Source: Oligoflexales bacterium
GTDB lineage: Bacteria > Bdellovibrionota_B > Oligoflexia > Oligoflexales > RGVZ01
Direction of reading: 5' to 3'
Assembly (NCBI GenBank): GCA_044236265.1
Contig: JBIIGV010000006.1
Span: forward strand, 1-48,037
Length of the DNA stretch: 48,037 nt
Within the stretch, counting starts at the first letter, position 1, and each line of letters starts with the position of its first letter. The translations under genes and the position numbers were made by a program. Under the pieces are notes generated by a model that was not told the origin of the DNA, did not search any database, and saw nothing but the letters and a program-made list of their open reading frames with translations. Positions 7,912 to 26,631 of the stretch are shown here, piece after piece.

Positions 7912-8815
7912 GCATTTGTGAAGTCACGGTGAAACCTTGTACTAGTTTTTGAATATGCACCCCGCAAAGCTTGGGAAAGCAGTTCAAATCCATACCAGCC
8001 AGAGTTACAAGCCTATTGCGCGCATCATCAAAGTTACCAGCATGAAGCGTTGTTATCACGCCACCATGACCGGTTCTAGCTATGTCAGCAAAAGCCCTGC
8101 ACTCGTCTCCTCGCAATTCGCCAACGACTAAAAGCTTTGGTGATAGCCTCATCATTTCAGAGAGAACTTTCGACATTGGCACCCCTCCTCGACCTGATGA
8201 GTCGGGGGAGATCTCCAAAATGCGAAACCAATATTTTGATAAAAGAGGTATTTCTTCCACGGACTCTGCAATTCCGATACGAACTTCTGAAAAATAGGAT
8301 TTGAGCATTGATGTTAAAAAGCTAGTTTTACCAGATCCAGTTGCGCCAAAAATAACTAACGATATCTGACGATTTATTGCGTCATTTAGCTCGGAAGGCG
8401 TCACCTGATTAAATTGAAAGGCATCCAGGTTTAATGTCTCAAATCTCTGCCGACGAAAGACGACCATCGGCCCATCAGAAGCCATGGGTGCGATAACAGC
8501 GTGCCATCGCCACGTCTGACCTGGAATGACACCCCCACCATAAGGGCGATACGGGTCAATCCGAACCCGACACTCCCAAGATAGCTCAGCTATCAGATCG
8601 GCAACCTTATCGACCGACCAAAAAATATTGATTGTATCAATACACAGAGCGTCGTTTTCCAAACTCCGCTGAGTACTGCTATGAAGATAAATCTCTGACA
8701 GCGATTCATCCAATAAATAGGAATGAAGCTCCATCACGTAAACATCCAGTCGACGAAACTCCTGGCTCCCCAAAGAGACGTCCGAGAACTTTTTTTGGCC
8801 TATCAGTTTAAACAT
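7904..8815 (-). CDS. CpaF/TadA/VirB11-family secretion ATPase (short)
   Basis: Walker A GATGSGKTS, Asp-box AESVEEI, Walker B VVGELRG and His-box TGHGGVITTLHA. Confidence 0.85.
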   Translation of the reverse strand: MFKLIGQKKFSDVSLGSQEFRRLDVYVMELHSYLLDESLSEIYLHSSTQRSLENDALCIDTINIFWSVDKVADLIAELSWECRVRIDPYRPYGGGVIPGQTWRWHAVIAPMASDGPMVVFRRQRFETLNLDAFQFNQVTPSELNDAINRQISLVIFGATGSGKTSFLTSMLKSYFSEVRIGIAESVEEIPLLSKYWFRILEISPDSSGRGGVPMSKVLSEMMRLSPKLLVVGELRGDECRAFADIARTGHGGVITTLHAGNFDDARNRLVTLAGMDLNCFPKLCGVHIQKLVQGFTVTSQMLN

Positions 8816-21486: not shown

Positions 21487-22338
21487 TCAAAACTCTAGAT
21501 TATCAATCAAGCGAACATCACCAAATAAAACTGCAATAATCATCACCAAATTCTTCTCAGCAACCGTTACGCCTGCGGGCTCCAAGCTGAAACGATCCAC
21601 AATTTCGGCGTACTGAATTTTCATCCGTGGACACTGGGCTATTGAATCCTTAAACAGAGCTGTTAATTTCGCCAAAGATCTCTCGCCACGCTCCCATGCT
21701 GCTTTTGCCGCGCTCAAACCTTTGTATATGAGTGCAGACTCTTCGCGCTCTTCAGCACTCATGTAGCGATTTCGACTACTCATAGCGAGCCCGTCTTTTT
21801 CTCGGATGGTGTCGCAGCCGCGAATTTCAATTGGAAGCTCCACGTCCTTGGCCATCCGCTCGATCAGACGCCACTGCTGATAGTCTTTTTTTCCGAACAA
21901 AGCCATGTCTGGGGCTACGATGTTCAGTAGCTTTAGAACGACAGTCAAAACTCCCTCGAAATGACCAGGTCTAAATTTACCACAGAGTCCTTCAGACATC
22001 TTTTTGTTGATTACGGACGTTTGAAATGCCACCGGATAAATTTCCGCCGCTGCAGGAGCAAAAACAACATCTGCACCCACCGTCTGCAACTTCTCAACAT
22101 CCTCTTTCAACGTACGGGGATAACGCGCGAAATCTTCACTTGGTCCGAACTGCATCGGATTCACGAAAATGCTGACAACTACTCGTGCGCCCTCAGCCCT
22201 GGCCTGCAGTACGAGTGACAGATGGCCATCATGCAAGGCACCCATTGTCGGAACAAAAGCGACTTTTTCACCGGCTTGTCGCCATTTGGATACGACCGAT
22301 CTGATCTCAGCAATAGTCAGGACTGTATCAACTGCCAC
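21487..22338 (-). CDS. panC: Pantoate--beta-alanine ligase
   Basis: VPTMGALHDGH, FVNPMQF, RPGHFEG, GKKDYQQ, GLAMSSRN and RLIDN motifs. Confidence 0.99.
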   Translation of the reverse strand: MAVDTVLTIAEIRSVVSKWRQAGEKVAFVPTMGALHDGHLSLVLQARAEGARVVVSIFVNPMQFGPSEDFARYPRTLKEDVEKLQTVGADVVFAPAAAEIYPVAFQTSVINKKMSEGLCGKFRPGHFEGVLTVVLKLLNIVAPDMALFGKKDYQQWRLIERMAKDVELPIEIRGCDTIREKDGLAMSSRNRYMSAEEREESALIYKGLSAAKAAWERGERSLAKLTALFKDSIAQCPRMKIQYAEIVDRFSLEPAGVTVAEKNLVMIIAVLFGDVRLIDNLEF

Positions 22339-22421
22339 CCAAATCCCCCTTGGAACGCTTGATTGCTTCTGAGCACTCTAGCTATGATGGCAAATTTACT
22401 TGATTATTCAACAGAATAGAC

Positions 22422-22452
22422 AAAAAAAATCACCCGCATTTCGCGGGTGATT
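22422..22452 (-). terminator. Intrinsic terminator of the candidate sRNA
   Basis: Minus strand AATCACCCGC-GAAAT-GCGGGTGATT running into a T8 tract. Confidence 0.9.
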
Positions 22453-22635
22453 GAATAGACGAGAGATCCGATAGGTGAGAAGACTATAAACTGCCCTCCT
22501 GGCAATCCGGCCCATCCTAGGCCCACACTCTTGAAGTGAACTCCGTGTTCAACTTCCTCCATCTCCGTAAGGGTCCCGACGCTCGCGGCGCTTGACCCAT
22601 CCCATCTGGATATCTGCGCAAGTCTCACGACTTAC
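22422..22635 (-). ncRNA. Candidate CsrB/RsmZ-like GGA-repeat small RNA (~215 nt)
   Basis: Intergenic, with its own sigma28-type promoter and terminator. 5' hairpin GUAAGUC-GUGA-GACUUGC. Ten GGA on this strand versus none on the other strand in 22467-22602. Hairpin loops ACGGA, AGGAU and AGGAG. Confidence 0.7.
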
Positions 22636-22642
22636 ATTTTTA

Positions 22643-22669
22643 TCTTCGGTGGTCTTCTTTAAAACTTTA
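22643..22669 (-). promoter_or_regulatory. Sigma28 (FliA)-type promoter
   Basis: TAAAGTTT-N11-ACCGAAGA against the consensus TAAAGTTT-N11-GCCGATAA; predicted +1 near 22635. Confidence 0.7.
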
Positions 22670-22697
22670 GCCTCCCTGGCCGGCAGGCTAGGGAGGC
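22670..22697 (-). terminator. Strong hairpin downstream of the rodZ-like gene (terminator-like, weak U-tract)
   Basis: GCCTCCCTGGCC-GGCA-GGCTAGGGAGGC, a near-perfect 12-bp inverted repeat. Confidence 0.6.
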
Positions 22698-22725: not shown

Positions 22726-23877
22726 TTACTGAGGAAAGTCGTCCAGGGAAGCTTTTGCCTGAAGAACAATGCGTCTGCGGCGCCCCTTGCTACCAAGGGA
22801 TCCCAATGACTTTCCATTGTAGATGACATCAACCAAGCTAGCATCGCCGAGGTGAAGATCAGCTCGATCATTAAATGTAAATCGATATGAATTAGGAGCA
22901 AACTTGCTTTGCTCAAGCTTTTTACCATCCATCGTAATTTTTACATCGACATCACCGGATACTCTTAACTCAATGACCTGCTCAAATGCTGCGGCAGACG
23001 TCGATGGCATGAAAAGCGGATTGTCTTCAGCAGCCGAAGCTTGAGGCGTAGCTACTGCCCCGCGGTTTTCAGCCGCTACTGGCGCCGAGTTGAGGTTCGT
23101 ATTGGATGGGTTAGCGATGGCCAAAACAGACTGCTCCTTGTTGGCAGTCATTGGATCAGCAGGTTTTCCAGCATACTTTTCTGTCTCTGAAAGCGGCGCA
23201 TCAACGTTCGAACGCTCATCAATCTGAGTTTTGGCTGTGACCATTGACACTTCTTGCGACTTCGCAACAAGCCTGTTTTTATGCAATGTGCCGGCAGCCC
23301 ATCGGCCAAAAACTAAGCCCACAAATACAGTGGCAATTCCTGTCAGAACCCATAGCCGAATCTGGGGGCTAACAATTGTATGCACAATCCAAGCTGGCAT
23401 CTTTAGAGAAATTTTTGAATCGATTGCTCTCCGCTTCGATGGCATCTTTTGCACAAACGCTGCCGGTGATGCTTCAGACTCCAAACGACGAGACTTCGGG
23501 ACTGCTGCTGTAACCGTAGAAGCCACAATCTCAGCCGGCTTTTCTTCGGCGGCAGTATTTTCGGAAGGTGGCGTAATGACAAGACTGTCCCAGCAAGCGT
23601 CATATAGCCGCAGGCCCTCATTGGTATCAGTTCGAAGGAGTCGAGTAATGTTCTTGATGAAACCACGACCAAAGACCTTACCTGGAAGGCCATCTAAGTT
23701 GCCGGATTCTAAGCTTAAAATATAGTTTTTACTAATTCTTGTCTCTTGGGAGACAGCATCGATTGAAATTCCCGAGCGTTCACGAGCCTGACGCAACCAC
23801 TCTGCAAGCCTCAGTCTAGCCGACTCCTGGTTCGACGGTACCGCAGCCAAGCCCTCATTGGGGGAGACGTTCGTCAT
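22726..23877 (-). CDS. RodZ-like protein (HTH_25, TM, C-terminal DUF4115-like domain)
   Basis: LRQARERSGISIDAVSQETRISKNYILSLESG...FGRGFIKN, one TM helix, and C-terminal LGDASLVDVIYNGK. Confidence 0.85.
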   Translation of the reverse strand: MTNVSPNEGLAAVPSNQESARLRLAEWLRQARERSGISIDAVSQETRISKNYILSLESGNLDGLPGKVFGRGFIKNITRLLRTDTNEGLRLYDACWDSLVITPPSENTAAEEKPAEIVASTVTAAVPKSRRLESEASPAAFVQKMPSKRRAIDSKISLKMPAWIVHTIVSPQIRLWVLTGIATVFVGLVFGRWAAGTLHKNRLVAKSQEVSMVTAKTQIDERSNVDAPLSETEKYAGKPADPMTANKEQSVLAIANPSNTNLNSAPVAAENRGAVATPQASAAEDNPLFMPSTSAAAFEQVIELRVSGDVDVKITMDGKKLEQSKFAPNSYRFTFNDRADLHLGDASLVDVIYNGKSLGSLGSKGRRRRIVLQAKASLDDFPQ

Positions 23878-26604: not shown

Positions 26605-26631
26605 TCAAGTTCAAGGGTCTTGCGCCGATAA
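26605..26631 (+). promoter_or_regulatory. Sigma28 (FliA)-type promoter
   Basis: TCAAGTTC-N11-GCCGATAA, with a perfect -10 element. Confidence 0.75.

What the first reader, a model, noticed from the sequence alone, without database searches (positions are those of the whole stretch)
22422..22635. Candidate CsrB/Rsm-type protein-sponge sRNA outside Gammaproteobacteria
Seen: a self-contained minus-strand unit between the rodZ-like gene and panC. It starts with a GNRA hairpin (GUAAGUC-GUGA-GACUUGC) and ends in an intrinsic terminator. It carries 10 GGA motifs in 22467-22602, against 0 on the opposite strand and roughly 2-3 expected by chance. At least three sit in hairpin loops: GAAG-U-UGAAC[ACGGA]GUUCACUUC (22533-22556), GGCCU[AGGAU]GGGCC (22509-22523) and UUGCC[AGGAG]GGCAG (22491-22505). 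Known: A(N)GGA in short stem-loops is the CsrA/RsmA binding site and the defining architecture of CsrB/CsrC/RsmY/RsmZ. These are characterised mainly in Gammaproteobacteria, while other lineages typically antagonise CsrA with the protein FliW. Inference: an unannotated CsrA-sequestering sRNA of about 215 nt in a probable Oligoflexia/Bdellovibrionota genome.
Basis: partly seen in the sequence, partly recalled or inferred. Interest (0 to 1): 0.88.

Follow-up and report, generated by a model that had tools for sequence, protein, structure and literature searches.

The report
Flagellin-leader-mimicking small RNA of Oligoflexales
This is a previously undescribed folded RNA, seen here only in flagellated Oligoflexales bacteria, that carries the same two hairpin loops as a flagellin messenger RNA and probably acts as a decoy for the protein, most likely CsrA, that holds back flagellin synthesis.

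Summary
The RNA is real; the label needs changing. Window 22636-22420 (minus) is a non-coding RNA with no Rfam match, a sigma-28 promoter and seven covarying helices. It occurs once per genome in 78 of 80 flagellated genomes of the order and 0 of 14 without flagellin, although those 14 keep sigma-28 and four keep csrA. A metatranscriptome contig covers the core alone. The 10 GGAs are there, but only 3 are unpaired and GGA is not what is conserved: two hairpins 18 nt apart carry A-N-G-A-N loops, and 22 of 73 homologues have no GGA in either. So it is not a CsrB/Rsm family member. The same C[ANGAN]G hairpin sits in the leader of one flagellin class (51 of 58 leaders; shuffles 1.1), where it alternates with canonical ANGGA CsrA loops, beside an AGGAG Shine-Dalgarno hairpin. 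The lineage's CsrA lacks the usual Pro37, and fliW is present. Best reading (about 60%): a late-flagellar, one-dimer CsrA decoy that mimics the flagellin leader and works alongside FliW. Binding is untested; another leader-binding protein is the main rival.

The parts
22643..22669 (-). sigma-28 (FliA)-type promoter: TAAA 22669-22666, 15 nt, ACCGAAGA 22650-22643
   Evidence: 7 or 8 of 8 consensus letters in 69 of 78 homologues, mostly at one fixed distance; fliA in the genome; Bdellovibrio FliA consensus TTAAG-N16-CCGATA (PMC3627812)
22420..22636 (-). the small RNA, about 215 nt with terminator; predicted start 22636 +/- 2; conserved core 22635-22463
   Evidence: model R2 hit 22458-22639, single copy; RNA-library contig 22468-22620 with no flank cover; ends are predicted, not mapped
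22618..22635 (-). P0, 5' hairpin; loop variable; begins with the same word and at the same distance from the -10 box as the 5' hairpin of one flagellin mRNA class
22463..22614 (-). P1, closing helix (22614-22601 with 22475-22463), base of a three-way junction with P2 and P3
   Evidence: 10 of 10 pairs with a change on both sides, 76% of cells paired
22571..22598 (-). P2, hairpin of variable length
   Evidence: 5 of 5 pairs with two-sided change, 90% paired
22479..22566 (-). P3 (22566-22561 with 22484-22479), closes a four-way junction holding P4, P5, P6; flanked by conserved UAC, G and UYACC
   Evidence: 90% paired; column conservation
22533..22556 (-). P4, dispensable hairpin; holds the ACGGA loop only in this genome; missing in several homologues
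   Evidence: GGA at this column in 1 of 73; P4 region 0-4 nt long in 13 of 73
22509..22523 (-). P5 hairpin, loop AGGAU here, A-N-G-A-N in the family; preceded by near-invariant G-N-G
   Evidence: 99.7% paired; A1 71/73, G3 68/73, A4 73/73, position 2 free
22489..22507 (-). P6 hairpin, loop AGGAG here, A-N-G-A-G in the family; 17-19 nt from the P5 loop
   Evidence: 99.8% paired; A1 73/73, G3 72/73, A4 73/73, position 2 G33 U22 A18; spacing 18 nt in 59 of 73
22420..22452 (-). intrinsic terminator (present here, not a family feature)
   Evidence: 16 of 78 homologues
22726..23877 (-). upstream gene, RodZ-like (weak profile hit only)
   Evidence: NF041534 27 bits, far under cut-off; upstream of 75 of 78 homologues
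21487..22338 (-). panC, downstream neighbour; not an obligatory partner
   Evidence: TIGR00018 327 bits; same strand downstream in 66 of 78, not seen in the locus in 11, opposite in 1
22404..22628 (-). 74-aa ORF overlapping the RNA: not a conserved gene
   Evidence: frame free of stops in 9 of 73 homologues; P3-P6 distance mod 3 is 27/23/23

Best explanation
A sigma-28-transcribed, stand-alone structured RNA that mimics a flagellin mRNA leader and titrates the leader's translational repressor, most likely one CsrA dimer with relaxed (ANGAN) specificity. Shown: the RNA family, its fold, promoter motif, tie to flagellin, and the sharing of C[ANGAN]G hairpins between RNA and flagellin leader. Inferred: (1) the leader's two hairpins are repressor sites like those of B. 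subtilis hag and C. jejuni flaA; (2) the repressor is CsrA; (3) P5 and P6 fill the two RNA-binding faces of one dimer, the junction scaffold holding and protecting them; (4) once sigma-28 is released at hook completion the RNA is made with the flagellin mRNAs and frees them for translation, a feed-forward input beside the FliW-flagellin switch.
For: Flagellin leaders: in orthologues found by DNA likeness the Shine-Dalgarno hairpin GAC[AGGAG]GUC is in 17 of 17 and the upstream loop is AUGAU in 11 of 11 genomes of this genus but canonical AUGGA in 6 of 6 of the sister genera. Order-wide, 51 of 58 distinct leader stretches have a C[ANGAN]G or C[ANGGA]G hairpin (shuffled mean 1.1, max 4); 7 of the 51 are canonical ANGGA, 4 AGGAN, 40 A[U/C]GAN; 1 of 36 leaders of another flagellin class has one. 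One leader carries the P6 stem itself (L375). RNA loops have the same consensus, 18 nt apart, the spacing given as optimal for one CsrA dimer (PMC7652899, PMC4894983; passages). RNA present in 78 of 80 flagellin-positive and 0 of 14 flagellin-negative genomes though all 14 keep fliA. csrA-fliW lie behind flgK-flgL. Only 1 of 73 CsrA proteins of the class has Pro37 against 5 of 5 solved homologues shown; Arg44 is kept. csrA leaders hold RCC[ANGGAG]GGY in 52 of 73, P6 being the same word less one G. Some CsrAs tolerate GGA to GAA (PMC13443453 section 35). FlbT not found in the genome.
Against: No binding or genetic data. For RsmE the A(N)GGAX bases are read by the backbone and 'cannot be substituted', and GGA to AGA is used to abolish binding (PMC4005645); 41 of 73 P6 loops lack GGA. 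The upstream, non-SD hairpin of csrA's own leader keeps the GGA hexaloop in all 10 cases at -33/-34. Non-GGA ANGAN hairpins are not enriched near start codons genome-wide (21 of 238 against 20 of 178 and 20 of 184 for control loops). Loss of Pro37 is class-wide, including orders where the RNA was not found, so it does not track the RNA; its role in reading the first G is recalled, and four look-ups did not confirm it. Four genomes keep csrA (two also fliW) without the RNA. A second flagellin class has an AGGGU loop instead (14 of 23 leaders). A two-junction scaffold with about 15 near-invariant bases is more than a simple decoy needs. The SD hairpin of the 58-63 leader set was fixed by my search pattern. 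Kin are not independent.
Confidence: 0.6

Rival explanations
1. Same mimicry, different protein: an unidentified flagellin-leader-binding protein reads ANGAN loops, and CsrA keeps to ANGGA hexaloops.
For: Most leader and RNA loops lack GGA; csrA's own leader keeps GGA; RNA tracks flagellin better than csrA; structural argument against base substitution.
Against: Canonical AUGGA, AGGGA and AAGGAU loops replace ANGAN at the same leader position; no FlbT found; no candidate protein identified; two-hairpin leader is the known CsrA-flagellin layout.
Confidence: 0.2
2. Stand-alone ligand-binding RNA (a sink for c-di-GMP or another signal, like Bdellovibrio merRNA), the loops being tertiary contacts.
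For: Riboswitch-like fold with conserved junction bases UAC, GNG, ACC; motile-phase promoter; precedent merRNA (PMC3627812); no c-di-GMP-I riboswitch found in this genome.
Against: Does not explain the same loops in flagellin leaders; no Rfam aptamer match in the window or six distant homologues; no covariation support for a pseudoknot.
Confidence: 0.07
3. Classical CsrB/RsmZ-type multivalent GGA sponge.
For: 10 GGA here, the only intergenic cluster of three GGA hairpins in the genome; weak rsmX hit, 17.4 bits against a cut-off of 56; mean 5.5 GGA against 2.0 on the other strand in homologues.
Against: 3 of 10 GGAs open; homologues hold 1-10 GGA, 22 of 73 none in either loop; fixed multi-junction fold, single copy, sigma-28 promoter.
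Confidence: 0.04
4. Cis-acting leader (riboswitch or protein-controlled attenuator) of panC.
For: panC follows on the same strand in 66 of 78, 5-27 nt behind in one genus; most homologues lack a terminator.
Against: Promoter plus RNA are inverted in place between rodZ and panC in G034; panC absent from 11 loci; rodZ abuts panC with the RNA deleted in 8 of 14 flagellin-negative genomes; RNA-library contig stops at the core; no match to the Rfam pan motif.
Confidence: 0.04
5. Base-pairing sRNA or other scaffold RNA of the flagellar regulon.
For: sigma-28 sRNAs that pair with mRNAs are known in other bacteria (PMC11187230, search listing only).
Against: No conserved single-stranded stretch long enough for a seed; conservation lies in stems and 5-nt loops with a free position. 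Target prediction was not run.
Confidence: 0.05

Closest known systems
CsrB/CsrC, RsmX/RsmY/RsmZ (Rfam clan CL00106)
   Same: Stand-alone untranslated RNA with short hairpins whose loops resemble A(N)GGA; proposed to titrate CsrA.
   Different: Two conserved sites instead of many; ANGAN not GGA; fixed three-way plus four-way junction fold; sigma-28 promoter; genome has fliW; no Rfam hit (17.4 bits against 56).
C. jejuni flaA leader and B. subtilis hag leader in the CsrA-FliW-flagellin switch (PMC4894983, PMC7652899)
   Same: sigma-28 transcript, two hairpin sites about 18-21 nt apart, probably one CsrA dimer, FliW present; flaA leader itself titrates CsrA.
   Different: Here the decoy is a separate non-coding gene with its own scaffold, and the loops lack one G.
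Bdellovibrio bacteriovorus attack-phase sRNAs, merRNA and APsRNA1-7 (PMC3627812)
   Same: Related predators, motile-phase small RNAs, FliA regulon.
   Different: By eye none of the eight printed sequences shows the P3-P5-P6 core (not tested by a tool); merRNA carries a c-di-GMP-I aptamer, not found here.
6S RNA (RF00013)
   Same: Similar size, single copy, 5' and 3' ends paired.
   Different: Branched, no long helix with central bubble; the genome's 6S lies elsewhere (73 bits).

Membership tests
CsrB/Rsm sRNAs | Match to an Rfam model of the clan at its cut-off | tested here: not met
CsrB/Rsm sRNAs | Many GGA motifs exposed in loops or single strands | tested here: not met
   3 of 10 open; two conserved loops only
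CsrB/Rsm sRNAs | GGA conserved in the loops | tested here: not met
   both loops GGA in 21 of 73, neither in 22 of 73
CsrB/Rsm sRNAs | csrA in the genome | tested here: met
   77 of 78 RNA-bearing genomes, the exception 66% complete
CsrB/Rsm sRNAs | Non-coding, stand-alone transcript | tested here: met
   transcript only hinted by contigs
CsrB/Rsm sRNAs | Transcription by BarA/UvrY (GacS/GacA) | not tested
   not searched; a sigma-28 motif sits at the start instead
CsrB/Rsm sRNAs | Binds and sequesters CsrA | not testable with these tools
   no protein-RNA prediction offered
CsrA-FliW-flagellin module, leader-type antagonist | csrA and fliW in a flagellar operon; CsrA with C-terminal extension and Arg44 | tested here: met
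CsrA-FliW-flagellin module, leader-type antagonist | Flagellin leader with an upstream hairpin site and an SD-overlapping site | tested here: met
   (one flagellin class); loops mostly ANGAN
CsrA-FliW-flagellin module, leader-type antagonist | Sites contain GGA | tested here: inconclusive
   SD site yes; upstream site GGA in 11 of 51
6S RNA | RF00013 match; long helix with central bubble | tested here: not met
Known riboswitches and the pan motif | Rfam match; fixed position 5' of a regulated gene with an expression platform | tested here: not met

The most novel reading that the evidence does not exclude
Oligoflexales CsrA has shifted its code from ANGGA to ANGAN, and a dedicated sigma-28 RNA gene evolved as a structured copy of the flagellin leader, giving the first case of an sRNA and FliW controlling CsrA in one cell; the invariant junction G-N-G may supply the missing G in a tertiary site, or let a small molecule switch the decoy.
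Probability: 0.4. Interest if true: 0.9.

Novelty: new variant of a known kind. Interest (0 to 1): 0.8.

Why it matters
A 2020 review states that fliW and Csr sRNAs are anti-correlated and that whether they act together in any species remains to be determined (PMC7652899, passage). This family makes that directly testable with two short RNAs and one 98-residue protein. It would also be a natural change of CsrA's supposedly fixed GGA code, which means GGA-counting searches miss Csr-type RNAs, and it adds an order-wide structured RNA family and a flagellin-leader motif absent from Rfam. Even if the partner is not CsrA, the shared loop points to an unknown flagellin regulator in predatory bacteria.

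Tried and rejected
Rfam at cut-off on the window and by E-value on the locus and on six distant homologues: nothing. 6S: elsewhere. Coding by the 74-aa ORF: rejected. Model R1 had P1 and P3 mis-registered by one column and was not used; R2 replaced it. RNAalifold on the MAFFT alignment found only P5 and P6; the other helices rest on pair counts and mutual information; A2 was fitted to the structure and leans towards it. Pseudoknot UAC/GUG: 13 A-C mismatches, no compensation. First genome contigs pattern was mistyped, 0 hits; same slip. Phage copies: 0 in viral contigs with one exact pattern. Other orders of the class: 0 of 29 genomes, and 5 re-searched loosely gave two chance-level hits, one inspected and looking like coding sequence. 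Not found in flagellated G052 and G025 (67% complete). Idea that Pro37 loss tracks the RNA: rejected. Idea that ANGAN hairpins mark a wide regulon: not supported. Runs X3 and X4 gave nothing on the RNA; lack of flank cover in X1 is not proof of silence. Earlier scan findings: four look-ups, none. Ten paper searches found no description of this RNA; the library lacks most subscription papers, bioRxiv supplements were closed, and one .doc supplement of PMC3627812 could not be read. No complex or fold job was sent, as RNA cannot be a partner.

Full report
1. Observation. The minus strand between a RodZ-like gene (ends 22726) and panC (starts 22338) holds the hairpins and terminator described. Ten GGAs lie in 22467-22602, none on the other strand; shuffles give 3.9 (bases) or 5.5 (dinucleotides), so the excess is real but smaller than claimed, and marginal for the full 214 nt (p 0.053). 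Ensemble folding leaves three GGAs fully open, one partly; six are in stems. Rfam has no match at cut-off; the best is rsmX at 17.4 bits against 56. The genome has csrA and fliW behind flgK-flgL, fliA, and a separate 6S RNA.

2. A conserved RNA family. The regions upstream of panC in relatives carry the same element. From 22 of them I built model R2. It finds one copy in 71 of 94 genomes of the order and none in 29 genomes of other orders of the class. Record titles of pattern hits place the group in Oligoflexales, with some loosely labelled records. Seven weaker copies lie at the syntenic place, giving 78. Thirteen metagenome loci match too. In the 73-sequence alignment (mean identity 53%) 87% of cells pair and 43 of 44 pairs show a two-sided change; registers slid by one fall to 53% (the alignment was fitted to the structure). 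The fold is a 5' hairpin P0, a closing helix P1, a three-way junction with P2, helix P3, and a four-way junction with a dispensable P4 and two short hairpins P5 and P6. The overlapping 74-aa frame is open in only 9 of 73.

3. It is a stand-alone sigma-28 unit. TAAA-N15-nCCGA precedes 69 of 78 copies with 7 or 8 of 8 letters, mostly at one distance, matching the FliA motif mapped in Bdellovibrio (PMC3627812, passages and section 16). In G034 promoter and RNA are inverted in place between rodZ and panC. A contig from an RNA library covers 22468-22620 without a mismatch and nothing else of 2.5 kb; a second study has a 176-nt contig of a homologue. These are contigs, so this is a weak hint of a discrete, stable RNA. 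Most copies lack a terminator (16 of 78), so the 3' end may usually be set by processing at P1 (inference).

4. It follows flagellin. Flagellin genes are in 80 of 94 genomes. The RNA is in 78 of these and in 0 of the 14 others, which span four families and include two within-genus contrasts. All 14 keep fliA; four keep csrA, two of them also fliW. In 8 of the 14, rodZ abuts panC with the module gone. The genomes are drafts and kin, so the counts overstate independence, but loss of the sigma factor cannot explain the pattern.

5. GGA is not the conserved signal. P5 and P6 loops read A-N-G-A-N: A1, G3, A4 are nearly invariant while position 2 is free (P6: G33, U22, A18); 22 of 73 have no GGA in either loop, and the ACGGA loop occurs once. 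GGA state changes at least 15-17 times on the tree, the flanking A's not at all in P6. For RsmE such changes abolish binding (PMC4005645, passages and section 13). This removes the CsrB/Rsm label. The loops stay 17-19 nt apart.

6. The same loops are in a flagellin leader. One flagellin of this genome has a leader with an AUGAU hairpin and an AGGAG hairpin over the Shine-Dalgarno. In its orthologues the SD hairpin is in 17 of 17, and the upstream loop is AUGAU in 11 of 11 genomes of this genus and canonical AUGGA in 6 of 6 of two sister genera (one locus did not parse, two were another paralogue). Across the order 51 of 58 distinct leader stretches have such a hairpin against 1.1 in shuffles and 1 of 36 in another flagellin class; loops include AUGAU, ACGAU, AUGAC, AUGAA, AGGAU and canonical AUGGA, AGGGA, AAGGAU. 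That set was chosen by its SD word, so only the upstream hairpin is an independent result. An upstream hairpin plus an SD site is the layout of CsrA-repressed hag and flaA leaders, and the flaA leader titrates CsrA, probably one dimer (PMC4894983, PMC7652899, passages). The RNA's P0 also starts like the 5' hairpin of a second flagellin class, at the same distance from the -10 box, which may reflect shared ancestry or a shared promoter preference.

7. The partner. CsrA here has the FliW-type extension and Arg44 but Ser at position 37; 1 of 73 CsrAs of the class has the proline that all five solved homologues shown carry. That this region reads the first G is recalled, not confirmed. Natural CsrAs with relaxed specificity exist, and B. 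bacteriovorus CsrA represses hag (PMC13443453, passages and sections 35, 36). Against: csrA's own leader keeps ANGGAG hexaloops (52 of 73 at the SD, 10 of 10 at the upstream site); ANGAN hairpins are not enriched at gene starts genome-wide; Pro37 loss also covers orders without the RNA. FlbT, the other known flagellin-mRNA regulator, was not found in this 89%-complete genome.

8. Mechanism and odds. Most likely the RNA is a late-flagellar decoy: made with flagellin mRNAs, it offers two leader-like loops to one repressor dimer and frees flagellin translation beside FliW. CsrA as partner 0.6, unknown protein 0.2, ligand sink 0.07, pairing sRNA 0.05, classical sponge 0.04, panC leader 0.04. Every functional step is inferred from comparison; the purpose of the conserved junctions is unexplained.

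9. Novelty. No Rfam family, no earlier scan finding, and ten searches of the open library found no description (listed under Tried and rejected). It works like a Csr antagonist but is not a member of the CsrB/Rsm families: a new variant of a known kind. Papers seen: PMC3627812 (passages, section 16, Fig. S1 text, rows of Table S1), PMC13443453 (passages, sections 35 and 36), PMC4005645 (passages, section 13), PMC7652899 and PMC4894983 (passages), PMC7366521, PMC13287468 and bioRxiv 2025.10.23.684185 (term searches only).

Noticed in passing
G000:C124, about 8340-8415 (L036, L330) and orthologues L331-L398: Conserved two-hairpin flagellin leader, C[ANGAN]G plus GAC[AGGAG]GUC over the Shine-Dalgarno; a cis-element family in its own right.
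   Followed up: yes
G000:C8, upstream of 4234 (L034) and L291-L324: A second flagellin class has a conserved 5' hairpin with an AGGGU loop and an AAGGAG SD hairpin (14 of 23 leaders of that N-terminal type, 0 of 50 others).
   Followed up: partly
G000:C2:11290-11330 (L001) and relatives: csrA leaders across the class carry RCC[ANGGAG]GGY over the SD (52 of 73), often with a second hairpin upstream: likely autorepression.
   Followed up: partly
L001:1357-1653 and L137-L240: CsrA of the whole class lacks Pro37; eight genomes of this genus also share an unusual KEREEI / HRGE signature.
   Followed up: partly
PMC3627812 Fig. S1, APsRNA1 (HD100 499,375-499,581, ending 61 nt before flgJ Bd0536): By eye this published 207-nt attack-phase RNA has seven GGAs, about four in hairpin loops of the canonical type: a better candidate for a classical CsrB-like sponge in Bdellovibrio; only the original paper names it in the library. 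Not folded or tested.
   Followed up: no
14 flagellin-negative genomes (G023, G024, G028, G038, G039, G040, G043, G045, G047, G048, G053, G070, G071, G072): All keep fliA without flagellin; G038 and G070 keep csrA and fliW too: sigma-28 and CsrA-FliW have non-flagellar jobs there.
   Followed up: partly
window 22670-22697, minus: Strong G+C hairpin directly before the -35 box, without a clear U-run; similar hairpins of other sequence in relatives; may stop rodZ read-through.
   Followed up: no
window 22384-22411, minus: By eye a sigma-70-like promoter for panC (TTGAAT, 16 nt, CATCAT), partly kept in the genus; not flagged by the scan.
   Followed up: no
window 26605-26630, plus: Another sigma-28-like promoter before a 91-aa ORF and a response regulator.
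   Followed up: no
L027, L029, L172, L175, L188, L192, L200: The seven most degenerate copies of the RNA all keep GGA in the remaining P6-type loop, as if the scaffold made up for the missing G.
   Followed up: partly
L104:1496-1651: Promoter and RNA inverted in place between rodZ and panC in G034.
   Followed up: yes
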